A DNA stretch of 64,000 bases from a virus. The notes below the pieces were generated by a model that worked only from the letters and a program-made list of their open reading frames with translations, ran no database searches and had not been told where the DNA came from. The translations under genes were made by a program, and so were the position numbers. The stretch is from the IMG/VR virus record IMGVR_UViG_3300020439_000005, positions 16,698 through 80,697 of that record. The stretch is one strand, 5' to 3'. Each line of letters opens with the position of its first letter. Position 1 is the first letter of the stretch. Of the stretch, positions 2,076 through 59,853 are shown in pieces.

Positions 2076-2348
2076 GTGAGAGTTCTCAAGCCGGAGAAGG
2101 GATATTGCTTAGTTAGACGATGGGTACCCGAACAGACTACTACATCGGGTGTGATAATACAGGATGACGCCGCCTCATACGGCTTCGGTGTTATTGATGC
2201 AATTAACCCCGATGGAGGCCGAGAATACGACGTAGGCACCATTGTTTTGATAGCAAGTGATAAAGGAACTCCCGTTCAATGGAACGGTAATGTATGTCTC
2301 ATGGTTAAGATATACGACATAATAGGAACCGTGGAGGAATCAGAATGA
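2076..2348 (+). CDS. groES: Co-chaperonin GroES (Cpn10)
   Basis: LKPEKGYCLVRR...TTTSGVII mobile loop...VGTIVL...GTPV...DIIGTV aligns to GroES by eye; likely GTG start at 2076; ATGA overlap with groEL. Confidence 0.85.
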   Translation: MRVLKPEKGYCLVRRWVPEQTTTSGVIIQDDAASYGFGVIDAINPDGGREYDVGTIVLIASDKGTPVQWNGNVCLMVKIYDIIGTVEESE

Positions 2349-3919
2349 AGCGTTCGATATTTGGAGAAGAAGCAAGAGAAGCATTGATGCGAGGAATAGA
2401 CGAAGTCGCTAACTCAGTAAAACCAACACTAGGACCTGCGGCTCGTACTGTTATACTAGAGAGGCAGTATGGTTCTCCTATCGTCATCAACGACGGTGTG
2501 ACTATTGCCAAGGACATAGATATGAAAGAGGACCCGTATGCTAATCTCGGTGTTCGCTTGATTCAAGAAGCCGCAAGCAAGGCTCAAGATAACGCAGGTG
2601 ATGGTACTACTACTGCGTCGATACTAACTCAGTCTCTATGTACGAAGGGGTTAGCCGAGATGAAGACAGGTAGGAATCCAATCCATATCAAAAAGGGATT
2701 CGATAAGGCGGTCGAAATTGCAGTAAAGGCGATTGAAGACGCATCTCAAGATGTCGACGACGAATCTTTGGTACACGTTGCTACTATCGCCGCCAACAAT
2801 GATGAGATGATTGGTGGTTTGATTGCCGAGGCTTTCGGCAAGGTCGGTCGAGATGGAATCGTCTCGATTGAAGAATCGAACGGTCTCGATACGACGCTCG
2901 AAGTTGTAGATGGTTTGGAGTTTACTAAGGGTCTCCTTAGCCCACACTTCCTCACCGATGAGGAAAAACAAATCTCGATTTTGAAGAATCCGTTGATTTT
3001 GATTACAGATGAACACATCAAACACGCTCAAGAGATTGTTGATGTTCTGAATTATTCTGCTGAGATGAAAAGACCATTACTCATCGTAGCGGCTAAACTC
3101 GAAGGAGAAGCACTTGCTACACTCGCTTTGAATGCCACACGTGGCGTCCTTGAAGTCGCCGCAGTTGAGGCTCCTTCCTTTGGTAATTCACGTGAAGAAA
3201 TCCTCACCGATATTGCTACGGTCGTTGGTGCAGTTCCTATTTTTGCTAGCAAGGGAATGTCGACACAACGGAACGGCATAGAGTCGCTAGGTCGTGCTAG
3301 TACGGTCAAATGCTCCATGAAGCGAACTACAATAGTCGGTGGAGCAGGTGTTGATTCTGATATTAAGAAAAGACAGGAGGCTTTGATTGCTCAGTCGAAA
3401 GAGGCTGAGACTGATTGGGAAGCCGAGGCTCTGCGAGCAAGAGCGGGCAAGATTTCCGGTGGAGTAGCGGTACTACATATCGGTGGTAAAACAGAAGCCG
3501 AGATGAGGGAGCGTGTGGCACGTGTCGACGATTCTCTGAATGCTACTAGAGCGGCCCTGCAAGAGGGAATAGTGCCGGGTGGTTCTATCATGTACCTACG
3601 TGCTAGGGATGAGATTCTTGATGCCTCAGATGATGCCGAAGGGGACGTTTGGTTGGGTATGATGATGGTTCACGATGCCTTGAGCGAACCGTTCCATCAG
3701 TTATGCTACAATGCAGGTGTCGACGGCTCAGAGGCTTTGGATAAGGTCGTCGAGATGAACGACCCTACATACGGTCTGAATGCTAAGACGCTAGAGTACG
3801 GAGACCTGCTAGAACAGGGAGTCATAGACCCTGCGAAGGTCGTCAAGAACTCACTAGAGACTGCGGCGTCAATAGCGGGTCTCGTATTGACCACCGAAGT
3901 TCTAGTCGCTGAGGACTAG
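2345..3919 (+). CDS. groEL: Group I chaperonin GroEL (Cpn60)
   Basis: VKPTLGP, NDGVTIAK, AGDGTTTA, GGVAV, EGIVPGG and GVIDPAKV motifs; no C-terminal GGM tail. Confidence 0.97.
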   Translation: MKRSIFGEEAREALMRGIDEVANSVKPTLGPAARTVILERQYGSPIVINDGVTIAKDIDMKEDPYANLGVRLIQEAASKAQDNAGDGTTTASILTQSLCTKGLAEMKTGRNPIHIKKGFDKAVEIAVKAIEDASQDVDDESLVHVATIAANNDEMIGGLIAEAFGKVGRDGIVSIEESNGLDTTLEVVDGLEFTKGLLSPHFLTDEEKQISILKNPLILITDEHIKHAQEIVDVLNYSAEMKRPLLIVAAKLEGEALATLALNATRGVLEVAAVEAPSFGNSREEILTDIATVVGAVPIFASKGMSTQRNGIESLGRASTVKCSMKRTTIVGGAGVDSDIKKRQEALIAQSKEAETDWEAEALRARAGKISGGVAVLHIGGKTEAEMRERVARVDDSLNATRAALQEGIVPGGSIMYLRARDEILDASDDAEGDVWLGMMMVHDALSEPFHQLCYNAGVDGSEALDKVVEMNDPTYGLNAKTLEYGDLLEQGVIDPAKVVKNSLETAASIAGLVLTTEVLVAED

Positions 3920-21520: not shown

Positions 21521-21859
21521 CTATGAATAGCGATTCGGTTTAATTGAATAGTCCTTGAGAAAGATTGACTTAGGTTTACTCTGAGATGGTTTACGTTGTG
21601 TTTGAGAGTCAACTAGATTCGTTCTTATGAAGATGCGATACCACTTGTCGTAATTATTCCAAGCGTCTCCATACTTCTCTTTGAGATACTCGTCCCACCC
21701 TTTGAGAGTCGGGTCTAACTTCTTGCACTTAGGACAGGCTTTGATTTCATGTAAATGCCTTTCAGTAGCAACGTACTTCTCGGGCCAACCTTTCTTTTCA
21801 GTACCGCATAGGTACTTGTATTGACTACTGTCTCTATGCAACAAAGGAGCCTTCGGCAT
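21521..21859 (-). CDS. Hypothetical Zn-binding protein
   Basis: H...LCG...CPKC; coupled to upstream ORF. Confidence 0.55.
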   Translation of the reverse strand: MPKAPLLHRDSSQYKYLCGTEKKGWPEKYVATERHLHEIKACPKCKKLDPTLKGWDEYLKEKYGDAWNNYDKWYRIFIRTNLVDSQTQRKPSQSKPKSIFLKDYSIKPNRYS

Positions 21860-27854: not shown

Positions 27855-28013
27855 TTAGCCGATGAAACCATTAGAGAAGCAGTCTTCGCAGACTAAGACC
27901 CCAAACCAACGTCCATTAACAAGTGATTTCTTTCTGAAAATTGCTAGTCTATTGGAGCCGCATGTACATGACGCTTCTCCGTTTTCATTCCACGTGATTT
28001 CGTTTTCGCCCAT
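27855..28013 (-). CDS. 52-aa Zn-ribbon microprotein (not in ORF track)
   Basis: MGENEITWNENGEASCTCGS...LVCEDCF; CACAAAAC-class promoter 21 nt upstream. Confidence 0.65.
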   Translation of the reverse strand: MGENEITWNENGEASCTCGSNRLAIFRKKSLVNGRWFGVLVCEDCFSNGFIG

Positions 28014-28042
28014 GACCTTCCGAAGAAGTTGTACTATATGAA

Positions 28043-31509: not shown

Positions 31510-31803
31510 TATGAGAAATTGAGAAGATACCGACCAATCTCACCCCGAACAGGAGTGGACTTAGGGGCCTCCGCCCCCAACGAGGCACCCGAGGTCATCG
31601 GGCGTGTAGACCCTCGCAGGTCGGGTAAGTGCCACGTGCTTATTCCAAATAGGGACGACCCTTTGTCGAATGGTACTAACTACAACATTAGTCCTTCACA
31701 CTAGGCTCAGAGAGGGATTTTCGTTATTTTGACCCCCGCATTTCAAGAGCAGGGACTCCGGCCTTCATGGTGGTGTGTGTTCAGTACACCACCGCACTTA
31801 CAT
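31510..31803 (-). ncRNA. Putative ~290-nt structured non-coding RNA of unknown family
   Basis: Own CACAAAAC-N7-TCATATAG promoter; ATG followed at once by TAA; multiple nested helices with GCGA and GGAG tetraloops. Confidence 0.65.
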
Positions 31804-31846
31804 TTGAGCGGACAGGGTGTACCTATATGAAGTTATCGTTTTGTGT

Positions 31847-32197
31847 TTATCTCTTTCCACCGAAGTATTCGGTAGCGTGTCCTTCGTCAATCAGAACCTT
31901 GTTGATATTACGACCGCTAGTAGTTTTGAGTTCGCCTAAGCATCTCCCGTACTTTCCTACCCCGTGTGACTTAACGATGATACGTCCGTCCTTACATAGT
32001 TCTTCCAATCTTTCCTTTGCGGCAAGACCACGGATTTTTTCTTCCTTGTCTCTAGTCCGAGATTCGGGAGCGTTGAGTCCGTACAAACGAACTCTCACGT
32101 TGAAGTGTACTTTGAATCCTAAGTCAACCCTTACGTCGACTGTGTCTCCGTCTACGACTCGCAATACGTCTGCGTAGTATTCCCACATGGAAATCAC
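31847..32197 (-). CDS. Thermonuclease (SNase family)
   Basis: RVVDGDTV, RVRLYGLNAPE, GKYGRCLG, INKVLIDEGHA. Confidence 0.9.
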   Translation of the reverse strand: MISMWEYYADVLRVVDGDTVDVRVDLGFKVHFNVRVRLYGLNAPESRTRDKEEKIRGLAAKERLEELCKDGRIIVKSHGVGKYGRCLGELKTTSGRNINKVLIDEGHATEYFGGKR

Positions 32198-32901
32198 TTG
32201 TCGGATTTCTTCTTTGGTGGAGTTGCAGTTGGATTCGCTTTCGCTCCTGTTGCTACTGAGTTAGTTCCGGTCACACCAAACGCTTCCATGTTTAGTTCGT
32301 GAGCCTTAGCCATCTCCTCCATCTTTAGGTCATGCTCTAACTTAATCTTCTCAAGCATTCGGGAGTGTTCCTCGATTGCCTCAGCAGACTTTACATCTGA
32401 GTTTAATTGGTCGGGTAGAATGTTGATTTTAGCAGATTCTTTTCCTTTGAACAGGTCGAGTACAGAAGTTATGATTAGAAGGGCCGGACCACCTAGGAGA
32501 CCAATAACAGTCAACTGACTGTCTGTTATGTCCCTCTCTTGTACAATAGAGAAGTAGGAAGCGAGAGCCGCTATCATAACCCACATGATTACAACCATGA
32601 ATCCGAATATCAACATCAATTTCTCATTCGGGTTGGTCATTTTAACGGATGCCATGCCTTTGAACCGAAAAAGCAGGTTCTTTACGGATTGGGTGCAAAA
32701 GTATATAGTCGTCCATCCCATATAGAAGGCCGCAGTCCCCAAACCGGCGAGGAATAAAACCGTCATCCATGTCCCTACGAATCCTTCCGTTTCAACCACC
32801 TCTGAAATCTGTAATTCAATCGGTAGACCAATTCGTTCAATCCTCCGAGAATGGCAATCCCACTTAGACAAAATAAAGTGGTCATTAGACCCATACCGCA
32901 A
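32194..32901 (-). CDS. Multi-TM membrane protein (holin-like candidate); start likely downstream of annotated
   Basis: Three hydrophobic segments and a charged C-terminus. Confidence 0.5.
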   Translation of the reverse strand: MRYGSNDHFILSKWDCHSRRIERIGLPIELQISEVVETEGFVGTWMTVLFLAGLGTAAFYMGWTTIYFCTQSVKNLLFRFKGMASVKMTNPNEKLMLIFGFMVVIMWVMIAALASYFSIVQERDITDSQLTVIGLLGGPALLIITSVLDLFKGKESAKINILPDQLNSDVKSAEAIEEHSRMLEKIKLEHDLKMEEMAKAHELNMEAFGVTGTNSVATGAKANPTATPPKKKSDK

Positions 32902-59155: not shown

Positions 59156-59338
59156 TCAGTTTTGGGACTTGACCCGACTCTGAGTAAATATGGTACCACT
59201 ATTCATGTGTATATCTGAACCACCGTTGTGTACGACAACTGCTGATATATCCGCCGTTCTAATGGTCGCTTGACCACTACGTACTTTGATTGTGATAAAC
59301 TCCTCTGTTGGTATTTGTGTTAGTTGGCGTACAATCAT
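59156..59338 (-). CDS. Small hypothetical protein
   Basis: ATGA-coupled to the upstream ORF. Confidence 0.45.
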   Translation of the reverse strand: MIVRQLTQIPTEEFITIKVRSGQATIRTADISAVVVHNGGSDIHMNSGTIFTQSRVKSQN

Positions 59339-59853
59339 TCTTCTTCGCCTCCTGTTGTGATACCTGCGTCCCAATCCTCGACTGCCTGTTGTGCGGCACG
59401 TGCGTTGCGCTCCGCAAACAACGAACCAAGGAAGACGTCATCGAAGTGGTCAATGCCGTTAATTAATTCTTGAGGACGGTCAGTAGCGATAGTGTTCAAG
59501 CAGTTGTTGATAGTCTCCTCGTCCATTGGACCCATTATTCTCATCAAGCGTTGGAACTGTCGAGTCGTGTTGCCTATGACCTGTATCATGGCTCCGTATG
59601 CGAACGGGTACTCTGCATAGCCACCCATCAAGTGCTTCTCGTATTGGTCGAGCGTACCTAGTAATACGTGCAAGGCGTCAATGTGCGCCTCCATGTACTG
59701 CTTCGCCTTTATCGGGTCGTCTCGCTCCATGGCCTTCAGTCGTGTCTCAAACGAAATCCGAGATGCGAAGTCTTGTTGGGCCTGTTCCCAATTCATCAAT
59801 AGTACCTGTTGGTCTAGCATGGCTTCTTCCATGATACTACCCGATATTCCCAC
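59335..59853 (-). CDS. Helical hypothetical protein
   Basis: 172-aa ORF. Confidence 0.55.
   Translation of the reverse strand: MGISGSIMEEAMLDQQVLLMNWEQAQQDFASRISFETRLKAMERDDPIKAKQYMEAHIDALHVLLGTLDQYEKHLMGGYAEYPFAYGAMIQVIGNTTRQFQRLMRIMGPMDEETINNCLNTIATDRPQELINGIDHFDDVFLGSLFAERNARAAQQAVEDWDAGITTGGEEE

What the first reader, a model, noticed from the sequence alone, without database searches (positions are those of the whole stretch)
31510..31845. Promoter-driven ~290-nt structured non-coding RNA of unknown class between the portal and terminase regions
Seen: a perfect class A promoter (31823-31845), which elsewhere usually sits 21-23 nt before a leaderless ATG, here leads to ATG-TAA, and no credible minus-strand ORF follows. 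The RNA folds by eye. The 5' GUAAGUGC (31801-31794) pairs with GCACUUAC (31632-31625) and closes a ~170-nt multibranch domain containing GGUGGUGU/ACACCACC, AGGC-CGGAG/CUCUG-A-GCCU and UCCCUGC/GCGGGGG. Then come hairpins GACCU-GCGA-GGGUC (GNRA loop), GCCCGA/UCGGGU, GGGGC-GGAG-GCCCC and CACUCC/GGGGUG, with an alternative CCGACC/GGUCGG pairing. Several G-U pairs favour the minus strand. I could not match it to tRNA, RNase P, SRP, tmRNA or group I/II intron cores. Inference: a new archaeal-virus ncRNA (scaffold, decoy, ribozyme or packaging-associated). The thermonuclease gene just upstream and the viral Sm-like protein are possible partners.
Basis: partly seen in the sequence, partly recalled or inferred. 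Interest (0 to 1): 0.85.

Follow-up and report, generated by a model that had tools for sequence, protein, structure and literature searches.

The report
New folded RNA gene, archaeal virus
The gene-free gap between the nuclease and portal genes of this ocean virus of archaea is a real, separately transcribed gene for a folded RNA of about 275 bases that matches no known RNA family, is passed around between unrelated viruses, and whose job is still unknown.

Summary
Observation confirmed. Window 31530-31801 (minus strand) encodes a ~275-nt structured non-coding RNA behind its own archaeal TATA box (31822-31831). It has stops in all six frames, no Pfam/PHROG hit, no Rfam hit even at E<=10, and no tRNA. 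The fold beats all 200 shuffles (z -3.3) and is strand-specific. Homologues exist. An otherwise unrelated 69-kb virus carries a 75%-identical copy standing alone in non-coding DNA and ending in a T7 run. A syntenic lineage (L058, L363, L364) keeps only the promoter and the 5' hairpin, followed by a different folded body. Helices covary: 3 double changes in hairpin 1, whose 9-nt loop is invariant, and 12 in a perfectly stacked 3' four-way junction whose junction-proximal pairs never change. Metatranscriptome contigs from one sample cover RNA positions 1-186 at 100% identity and both stop at G31801. Five complete close relatives lack the RNA, so it is an accessory, horizontally exchanged cassette. 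The links proposed to packaging, the nuclease or an Sm protein are not supported. Function is unknown; my best guess is a trans-acting protein-binding scaffold or decoy. This scan has noted other new RNAs in marine archaeal viruses, but not this family.

The parts
31822..31831 (-). TATA box TTCATATAGG of the RNA gene ('class A' promoter)
   Evidence: The same element 20 nt before a leaderless ORF at 28013. TATA kept in L141 and L058.
31802..31821 (-). Promoter spacer TACACCCTGTCCGCTCAAAT; its core CCCTGTCCGCTNAAAT is identical in all RNA-gene copies but unique within the window
   Evidence: Possible operator; this is inference.
31530..31801 (-). Structured RNA, positions 1-272 (5' end G31801, possibly A31803)
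   Evidence: Fold z -3.31. CM R1 scores 319.7 bits over 31518-31801. RNA-library contigs lie at 31616-31801 and 31635-31801.
31794..31801 (-). P1 5' strand GUAAGUGC
   Evidence: Pairs with 31625-31632. Seven bp are identical in L141. The X4 variant turns U-A into U.G.
31769..31793 (-). Hairpin 1: 8-bp stem and invariant 9-nt loop ACUGAACAC (31777-31785)
   Evidence: 100% of cells paired, 3 pairs changed on both sides, 2 G-C to G-U changes, in 4 distinct sequences.
31704..31763 (-). H2: GGC-CGGAG / CUCUG-A-GCC closing helix with a bulged A, and a variable interior hairpin UCCCUGC/GCGGGGG
   Evidence: L141 has GAC-CGGAG / CUCCG-A-GUC: one double and one single change. Enforcing this helix in L141 costs 0.4 kcal/mol.
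31665..31701 (-). H3, an optional hairpin absent from L141
   Evidence: In the X4 strain, three substitutions (31693-31696) and a 2-nt deletion (31669-31670) lie on its two strands and allow GUCGU/ACGAC.
31633..31664 (-). Conserved, mostly unpaired joining region AAAGGGU..UAUUU..AAG..CGU
   Evidence: Conserved blocks in the window/L141 alignment.
31625..31632 (-). P1 3' strand GCACUUAC
31530..31624 (-). 3' domain: four-way junction. P5 CCGACC/GGUCGG, arm A 31580-31617, arm B 31562-31579, arm C 31536-31561
   Evidence: The same topology is predicted independently in the window and in L141 (z -3.65 and -5.56; the MFE is 45-50% of the ensemble). 12 double compensatory changes; junction-proximal pairs are invariant.
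31513..31529 (-). U-rich tail UAUCUUCUCAAUUUCUC; probable leaky termination zone
   Evidence: L141 has CAAUUUUUUU at the same place. The exact 3' end is not shown.

Best explanation
Window 31530-31801 (minus strand) is a stand-alone gene for a ~275-nt structured non-coding RNA of a family not yet described. It is carried as an accessory, moron-like cassette by magrovirus-like tailed viruses of marine archaea.

Shown:
- It is non-coding.
- It has its own TATA promoter.
- It folds into two coaxially abutting domains. The 5' multi-branch domain is closed by P1 and carries a hairpin with an invariant 9-nt loop. The 3' domain is a perfectly stacked four-way junction.
- The helices covary.
- It is present in RNA libraries.
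- It is absent from close relatives and present in an otherwise unrelated virus.
- At the same locus other strains carry a different folded body behind the same promoter and 5' hairpin.

Inferred:
- It acts in trans as a protein-binding scaffold or decoy. The invariant loop and the invariant junction cores would be the recognition surfaces.
- Its patchy, swappable distribution points to an accessory role in host takeover or in virus-host or virus-virus conflict, not to a core role in packaging.

I put about 0.9 on 'genuine independently transcribed structured ncRNA gene of a new family' and about 0.3 on the scaffold/decoy mechanism.
For: - Fold: z -3.31 with 0/200 shuffles as good, and 19 kcal/mol better than the other strand. 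The 3' domain alone gives z -3.65 (window) and -5.56 (L141) with identical topology.
- Non-coding: stops in all six frames, mismatches to L141 not 3-periodic (44/42/32), no Pfam or PHROG hit for any overlapping ORF.
- No Rfam family at gathering score or at E<=10, no tRNA or tmRNA, no manA.
- Homologues: L141/L146/L366-L368 are 75% identical over the whole RNA, promoter included. L058/L362/L363/L364 share the promoter and hairpin 1.
- Covariation: hairpin 1 is 100% paired with 3 double changes. H2 has one double change. The four-way junction has 12 double changes and invariant junction-proximal pairs, including G.U pairs.
- Strain X4 changes are structure-neutral or compensated in P1, arm A, loops and H3.
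- Expression: two metatranscriptome contigs, 100% identical, both end at 31801. Neither covers the flanking SNase or p83 genes.
- Autonomy: the L141 copy lies in ORF-poor AT-rich DNA and ends in T7. Its 69-kb genome shares only 8 proteins at 30-62% identity with this virus and has no related portal or SNase.
- Accessory status: no match in five 97-100% complete relatives. The closest relatives have 32 nt where the SNase+RNA insert sits.
- Cassette swap: in run X7 the flanks match up to 31511 and from 31822, with another sequence between.
Against: - Only three to five distinct sequences are known, in two deep types, so covariation rests on few independent events.
- One X4 substitution (U31788 to G) breaks a pair in hairpin 1.
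- The whole-RNA folds of the homologues are not exceptional against shuffles (L141 z -1.41, L058 z -0.81).
- RNA evidence is from assembled contigs of one sample. These cannot prove ends, strand or abundance, and DNA carry-over is not excluded.
- The window copy has no clear oligo-T terminator, so it could also be the start of the p83-portal transcript.
- Nothing tested here bears on the scaffold/decoy mechanism. No partner protein or target is shown.
Confidence: 0.6

Rival explanations
1. Cis-acting structured 5' leader of the p83-portal late transcript. It would act as a stabiliser, processing signal, thermometer or riboswitch-like element rather than as a trans-acting RNA.
For: The SNase+RNA insert splits an operon that is contiguous in relatives (p235 stop, 32 nt, p83 ATG). 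The window copy is followed by only a weak U-rich tract and by no good TATA before p83, so transcription from the RNA promoter probably runs into p83-portal.
Against: The L141 copy ends in T7 and has no gene behind it for about 280 nt. That virus's p83 homologue is about 46 kb away. Type-2 copies are followed by a separate TTCATATA box for p83. The RNA-library contigs do not extend into p83 (weak evidence).
Confidence: 0.12
2. Catalytic RNA: a self-cleaving or trans-acting ribozyme, or the RNA subunit of a viral ribonucleoprotein enzyme.
For: Junction cores, G.U pairs and single-stranded joiners are invariant while peripheral stems vary, which is typical of RNAs with a precise 3D core. The RNA-library contigs cover only domain 1 and end near the domain boundary (contig ends are not evidence of cleavage).
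Against: No match to any ribozyme class in Rfam at E<=10. No conserved candidate cleavage site was identified. Type-2 RNAs lack the four-way junction altogether.
Confidence: 0.07
3. RNA inhibitor or antitoxin of the adjacent staphylococcal-nuclease-like enzyme (a type III toxin-antitoxin-like pair), inserted with it as one unit.
For: SNase and the RNA are adjacent, and both are missing from the closest relatives. The same pairing occurs in the L058, L362, L363 and L364 lineage and in X7.
Against: The 69-kb L141 virus has the RNA but no SNase. 79 of the 80 other SNase loci fetched have no such RNA behind the gene. There are no tandem repeats, and the RNA lies downstream of the nuclease gene, not upstream.
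Confidence: 0.05
4. tRNA-like mimic: the 3' four-way junction imitates a tRNA cloverleaf to engage a host tRNA-binding enzyme or RNase P.
For: The 3' domain is a four-way junction with 0-1 nt linkers that abuts P1 directly.
Against: ARAGORN finds nothing. There is no Rfam tRNA or tRNA-like hit. Arm lengths (38, 18 and 26 nt), a tetraloop in place of an anticodon loop, no T-loop motif and no CCA.
Confidence: 0.04
5. Packaging RNA working with portal and terminase, like phi29 pRNA.
For: It lies between the terminase and portal genes in the window and in L058.
Against: Five complete relatives with 64-84% identical portals have no copy; in the closest, G155, the terminase is 92% identical. In the L141 virus the RNA lies among small ORFs, and that virus has no related portal. 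No pRNA hit in Rfam.
Confidence: 0.02
6. Not an RNA gene: a DNA-level element (pac/cos/origin) or a decayed protein gene.
For: It lies in an intergenic position near packaging genes.
Against: Folding is strand-asymmetric and the G.U pairs are strand-specific. A conserved TATA box sits at the right distance, RNA-library contigs end there, and there is no coding signal.
Confidence: 0.03

Closest known systems
Orphan structured RNAs of phages and marine viruses (manA RF01745, GOLLD RF01998, ROOL RF03087)
   Same: Large, intricately folded, non-coding RNAs carried by viral genomes, patchily distributed, with unknown or only partly known function. Marine metagenomes are the main source.
   Different: No sequence or structure match: cmscan finds nothing at gathering score or at E<=10, and RF01745 run alone on the whole genome finds nothing. 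The host is archaeal, the promoter is a TATA box, the RNA is smaller (~275 nt), and the architecture differs (P1-closed multi-branch domain plus a stacked four-way junction).
Phage morons (independently promoted accessory genes inserted between core genes)
   Same: It has its own promoter. It is inserted between two genes that are adjacent in relatives, it is absent from close kin, and it is shared with unrelated viruses.
   Different: The product is an RNA, not a protein, and the cassette body is swapped while the promoter and 5' hairpin stay the same.
phi29 pRNA (RF00044)
   Same: A viral structured RNA encoded next to packaging genes.
   Different: No CM match. It is not linked to the packaging genes across genomes, and it is absent where the same terminase and portal are present.
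tRNA and tRNA-like structures
   Same: Four-way junction with very short linkers in the 3' domain.
   Different: It fails ARAGORN and Rfam. It has no anticodon loop, T loop or CCA end.

Membership tests
Any Rfam 15 family (4227 models, including archaeal SRP RNA, RNase P, GOLLD, ROOL, OLE, pRNA, the IMES and Ocean motifs, and known ribozymes) | Covariance-model score at or above the family's gathering threshold | tested here: not met
   0 matches in the whole window. At E<=10 only noise appears: the best is ncS035 at 18.7 bits against a threshold of 79, on the other strand. Nothing relevant in the homologues.
manA RNA (RF01745) | Match to the manA covariance model | tested here: not met
   No match at E<=10 in the 80.7-kb genome, nor in L141, L058 or L363.
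tRNA / tmRNA | Cloverleaf with an anticodon loop and T loop, detectable by ARAGORN | tested here: not met
   0 genes in the window. The 3' domain is a four-way junction, but its arms are 38, 18 and 26 nt and one ends in a tetraloop.
phi29-type packaging RNA | Obligate co-occurrence with the packaging motor genes | tested here: not met
   Absent from five complete genomes with 64-84% identical portals. Present in a virus with no related portal.
Type III toxin-antitoxin RNA (ToxI-like) | Tandem repeats of the antitoxin unit, upstream of and always linked to the toxin gene | tested here: not met
   No tandem repeat. The RNA lies downstream of SNase. The L141 virus has the RNA without SNase. 79 other SNase loci lack the RNA.
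Cis-regulatory leader / riboswitch | Conserved position directly upstream of the same regulated gene | tested here: not met
   The L141 copy is free-standing and ends in a T7 run. The p83 homologue of that virus is about 46 kb away.
Structured ncRNA gene (generic criteria) | Non-coding, with a fold better than shuffles on one strand | tested here: met
Structured ncRNA gene (generic criteria) | Compensatory base changes in homologues | tested here: met
   The sample is small: 2-4 distinct sequences per helix.
Structured ncRNA gene (generic criteria) | A discrete transcript with defined ends | tested here: inconclusive
   RNA-library contigs from one sample end at 31801. The 3' end and the strand are not shown, because these are contigs rather than raw reads.

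The most novel reading that the evidence does not exclude
This is a mobile RNA-gene cassette system in archaeal viruses. A constant promoter plus 5' hairpin 'handle' (invariant loop ACUGAACAC) is joined to interchangeable folded bodies and exchanged between unrelated magrovirus-like viruses. It would act in virus-host or virus-virus conflict, for example as a decoy for a host defence or RNA-binding factor. Alternatively it could be the RNA subunit of a small viral RNP with the basic zinc-finger-like protein p112, which was seen only in RNA-bearing lineages.
Probability: 0.2. Interest if true: 0.85.

Novelty: new variant of a known kind. Interest (0 to 1): 0.6.

Why it matters
[quoted passage not shown] The magrovirus papers I checked mention no non-coding RNA, although they report tRNAs in one group. 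This RNA has its own promoter and a precisely conserved 3D-looking core. It also shows signs of horizontal exchange and cassette swapping. That suggests these viruses use structured RNAs as accessory tools, as some phages do with GOLLD, ROOL or manA RNAs. The compact four-way junction, whose MFE fold makes up about half of the predicted ensemble, is a good target for structure determination. The invariant 9-nt loop offers a handle for finding the partner.

Tried and rejected
- **Homology in phage records:** blastn of the region against 50,697 phage records found no match.
- **Portal-related loci:** blastn and nhmmer against 56 portal-related loci found no match.
- **IMG/VR pattern scans:** ACTTACCCGACCTG, TAAGTCC..GATTGGTCGG, a loose 5' pattern and ACCGACGNGTGATGGTCGG returned only the copies already known, plus chance hits.
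- **Host copy:** CM R1 found nothing at E<=1 in 151 genomes of the order of the MAG that holds a related terminase. BLAST of the RNA against 401 genomes of that order gave only 20-30-nt chance matches inside coding genes. The model was built from two sequences, so its power is low.
- **Kissing pair:** a pairing between the hairpin-1 loop (GAACA) and the arm-C loop (UGUUC) is present in the window and in L141. However, 5-mer complements are expected by chance (p 0.26-0.67), and L363 has none in the same place. It is not claimed.
- **Antisense targets of the loop in the window:** none beyond chance.
- **Sm-like partner:** Pfam LSM was not found in the genome.
- **Another ncRNA in L030:** an ORF-free stretch after terL folds no better than shuffles (z +0.75).
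- **RNA-library coverage:** no cover over domain 2, SNase or p83. These are contigs, so this is no evidence of absence or of processing.
- **Tools:** One literature search was wasted on too loose a query.

Full report
**What is there.** On the minus strand, the thermonuclease gene (31847-32197; Pfam SNase 3.6e-12, PHROG endonuclease 6.9e-36) is followed after 16 nt by TTCATATAGG (31822-31831). After that comes 378 nt with no credible ORF until p83 (31469-31218) and the portal gene (31079-29586; Pfam Phage_portal 2.1e-33). The stretch 31510-31802 folds at -114.1 kcal/mol on the minus strand (z -3.31, 0 of 200 dinucleotide shuffles as good). The plus strand gives -95.2 kcal/mol (z -1.55).

**Not coding, and not a known RNA.**
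- The window copy has stops in all six frames.
- The 118 mismatches to the closest homologue show no 3-periodicity (44/42/32).
- No overlapping ORF hits Pfam or PHROGs even at E<=1.
- cmscan against Rfam 15 gives nothing at gathering thresholds over the whole window. Only noise appears at E<=10 over the locus and over three homologous loci.
- ARAGORN finds no tRNA or tmRNA.
- Earlier notes of this scan reported distant manA relatives in other archaeal-virus genomes, so I ran RF01745 alone on the whole genome. It found nothing at E<=10.
- There are no tandem repeats.

**Homologues.** Fifty-six loci with related portals (55-84% identical) contain neither SNase nor any match to the gap. Among 80 SNase loci, only L058 (89% identical SNase, same synteny) has a long non-coding stretch behind the gene. 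Pattern scans built on the shared promoter and 5' end then found two groups.
- **Type 1:** L141/L146 in IMG/VR and L366-L368 in metagenomes. These are identical to each other and 75% identical to the window over the whole RNA, promoter included.
- **Type 2:** L058/L139, L362, L363 and L364. These share only the promoter, the first nucleotides and hairpin 1, followed by a different body closed by GUAGUU/AACUAC.

**Structure.** In RNA numbering, position 1 is G31801.
- **P1** (1-8 with 170-177) closes a multi-branch domain.
- **Hairpin 1** (9-33) has an 8-bp stem and the loop ACUGAACAC. The loop is invariant in all lineages. The stem is 100% paired, with three pairs changed on both sides and two G-C to G-U changes.
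- **H2** closes with GGC-CGGAG/CUCUG-A-GCC in the window and GAC-CGGAG/CUCCG-A-GUC in L141. The bulged A is kept, with one double and one single change. Forcing this helix in L141 costs 0.4 kcal/mol.
- **H3** (101-137) is an insertion that L141 lacks.
- **A joiner of about 32 nt** (AAAGGGU..UAUUU..AAG..CGU) is conserved and mostly unpaired.
- **The 3' domain** abuts P1 directly. It consists of P5 (CCGACC/GGUCGG), one U, then three arms with no linker nucleotides.
  - This four-way junction is predicted independently in the window and in L141. The z-scores are -3.65 and -5.56, and the MFE makes up 45-50% of the ensemble. The opposite strands fold 9-13 kcal/mol worse.
  - Between the two sequences, 12 pairs changed on both sides: four in arm A, five of seven in arm B, and three in arm C.
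  - Every junction-proximal pair is unchanged, including G.U pairs at the base of arms A, B and C.
- **Type 2** also looks like a folded RNA. L058 and L364 carry a 133-nt insertion inside the loop closed by CGGAC/GUCCG, relative to L363.

**Strain variation and expression.** The stretch is held in 18 DNA runs from 8 studies and in 2 metatranscriptome runs from one sample.
- A 97.6%-identical DNA contig (X4) has ten substitutions and two deletions in the RNA.
  - One makes U-A into U.G in P1.
  - One makes G.U into A-U in arm A.
  - Several fall in loops; GGAG becomes GGAA.
  - Three substitutions plus a 2-nt deletion fall on the two strands of H3 and allow a new GUCGU/ACGAC pairing.
  - One (U31788 to G) breaks a pair in hairpin 1.
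- The two RNA-library contigs (189 and 170 nt, 100% identical) lie at 31616-31801 and 31635-31801. Both stop at G31801 with three non-matching letters, while the DNA contig runs on.
- G31801 is 20 nt after TTCATATAGG. Another copy of this promoter is followed 20 nt after TTCATATAG by the ATG of a leaderless 52-aa ORF, so the 5' end fits the promoter geometry.
- Because these are contigs from one sample, I treat this as a hint of a discrete RNA, not proof. The 3' end is unknown.
- L141 ends in GGUCGGCAAUUUUUUU, an archaeal-type oligo-T stop. The window has only UAUCUUCUCAAUUUCUC.

**Evolutionary context.**
- The virus encodes a thermosome-type chaperonin and an RFC-like ATPase, and earlier notes on this genome mention a PolB. 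A thermosome subunit is described for magrovirus groups A and D (PMC5434244).
- A 76%-identical terminase lies in a MAG labelled Methanobacteriota archaeon. An archaeal, probably Poseidoniales, host is therefore likely but not shown.
- The closest complete relative, G155, is collinear, with proteins 60-95% identical. It has 32 nt between p235 and p83, where the window has SNase plus the RNA, an insert of about 730 nt.
- Five complete relatives have no match to the RNA model anywhere in their genomes.
- The L141 virus (69 kb, estimated complete) shares only eight proteins with this one at 30-62% identity. It has no detectable related portal or SNase, yet its RNA gene is 75% identical at the nucleotide level.
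- In that virus the RNA stands among small ORFs and repeated GCTACAAATTTGTAGC palindromes.
- In run X7, a related virus matches the flanks up to 31511 and from 31822 but has another, type-2-like sequence between them.
- The 16-nt promoter spacer core CCCTGTCCGCTNAAAT is identical in all copies but occurs nowhere else in the window.
- Together these points describe an accessory, horizontally exchanged cassette with a constant promoter and 5' hairpin and a replaceable body.

**How it most likely works.**
- Shown: it is a non-coding, structured, independently promoted RNA.
- Inferred: it acts in trans, because one copy is free-standing with its own terminator and the downstream gene is not conserved.
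- The conservation pattern is an invariant apical loop on a covarying stem, invariant junction-proximal pairs including wobbles, and conserved unpaired joiners. This is what one expects of surfaces read by a protein or another RNA. I therefore favour a scaffold or decoy role.
- Its absence from close kin with nearly the same terminase and portal argues against a core packaging role.
- Its presence without SNase argues against a nuclease-specific partner.
- I found no host copy, no target for the loop in the viral genome, and no Sm-like gene.
- The cis-leader reading remains possible for the window copy alone, because termination there looks weak.
- I give 0.9 to 'real ncRNA gene of a new family' and about 0.3 to the scaffold/decoy mechanism.

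**Comparison with the known.** As a kind of thing it resembles the orphan structured RNAs of phages (manA, GOLLD, ROOL). In genomic behaviour it resembles phage morons. It is a member of none of the tested families (see the membership table). I found no paper describing non-coding RNAs, other than tRNAs, in magroviruses or Poseidoniales viruses.

**Limits.** There are few distinct sequences. The function is untested.

Noticed in passing
window 21521-21859 (-); L373:115-423 (-); L386:1495-1827 (+): A small basic protein, p112 (pI 9.6, conserved C..H..CPxC motif that looks like a zinc finger), is present in both type-1 RNA-bearing genomes. It is also in a contig from the same sample as the type-2 contig L058. 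It is absent from five complete RNA-less relatives. This is a weak co-occurrence lead for a partner.
   Followed up: partly
window 31798-31803; L141 3399-3404; L058 3381-3386: Every variant of the RNA gene has a start codon followed at once by a stop codon, at the position where this promoter normally places a leaderless ATG. The window and L141 have ATG-TAA, type 2 has ATG-TAG, and the X7 loose end has TTG-TAG. The RNA-library contigs, however, stop 2 nt downstream, at G31801.
   Followed up: no
window 27855-28042 (-): A second copy of the TTCATATAG promoter is followed 20 nt later by a leaderless 52-aa Cys-rich ORF (CTCG...CEDC), wedged between two structural genes.
   Followed up: partly
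window 32194-32901 (-) and G001 59224-59658: The membrane protein p235, next to the SNase-RNA insert, shares a stretch of about 40 residues that is 100% identical with a protein of the otherwise distant L141 virus. This suggests a second recently exchanged module.
   Followed up: no
L141 3270-3940: The free-standing RNA gene of the 69-kb virus is flanked by at least eight copies of a GCTACAAATTTGTAGC-like palindrome, one directly upstream of its TATA box. This may be a regulator-binding array or an origin.
   Followed up: no
window 31512-31821, run X7: A related virus in run X7 has conserved flanks but a different, type-2-like sequence exactly in place of the RNA gene. This delimits the swapped cassette.
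   Followed up: partly
L058 3448-3580 versus L363: Type-2 RNAs differ by a 133-nt module inserted in the loop closed by CGGAC/GUCCG.
   Followed up: partly
window 2345-3919 (+): The virus encodes a thermosome-type group II chaperonin (Pfam Cpn60_TCP1, 7.2e-63), also present in the L141 virus at 33% identity. This fits a magrovirus-like virus.
   Followed up: partly
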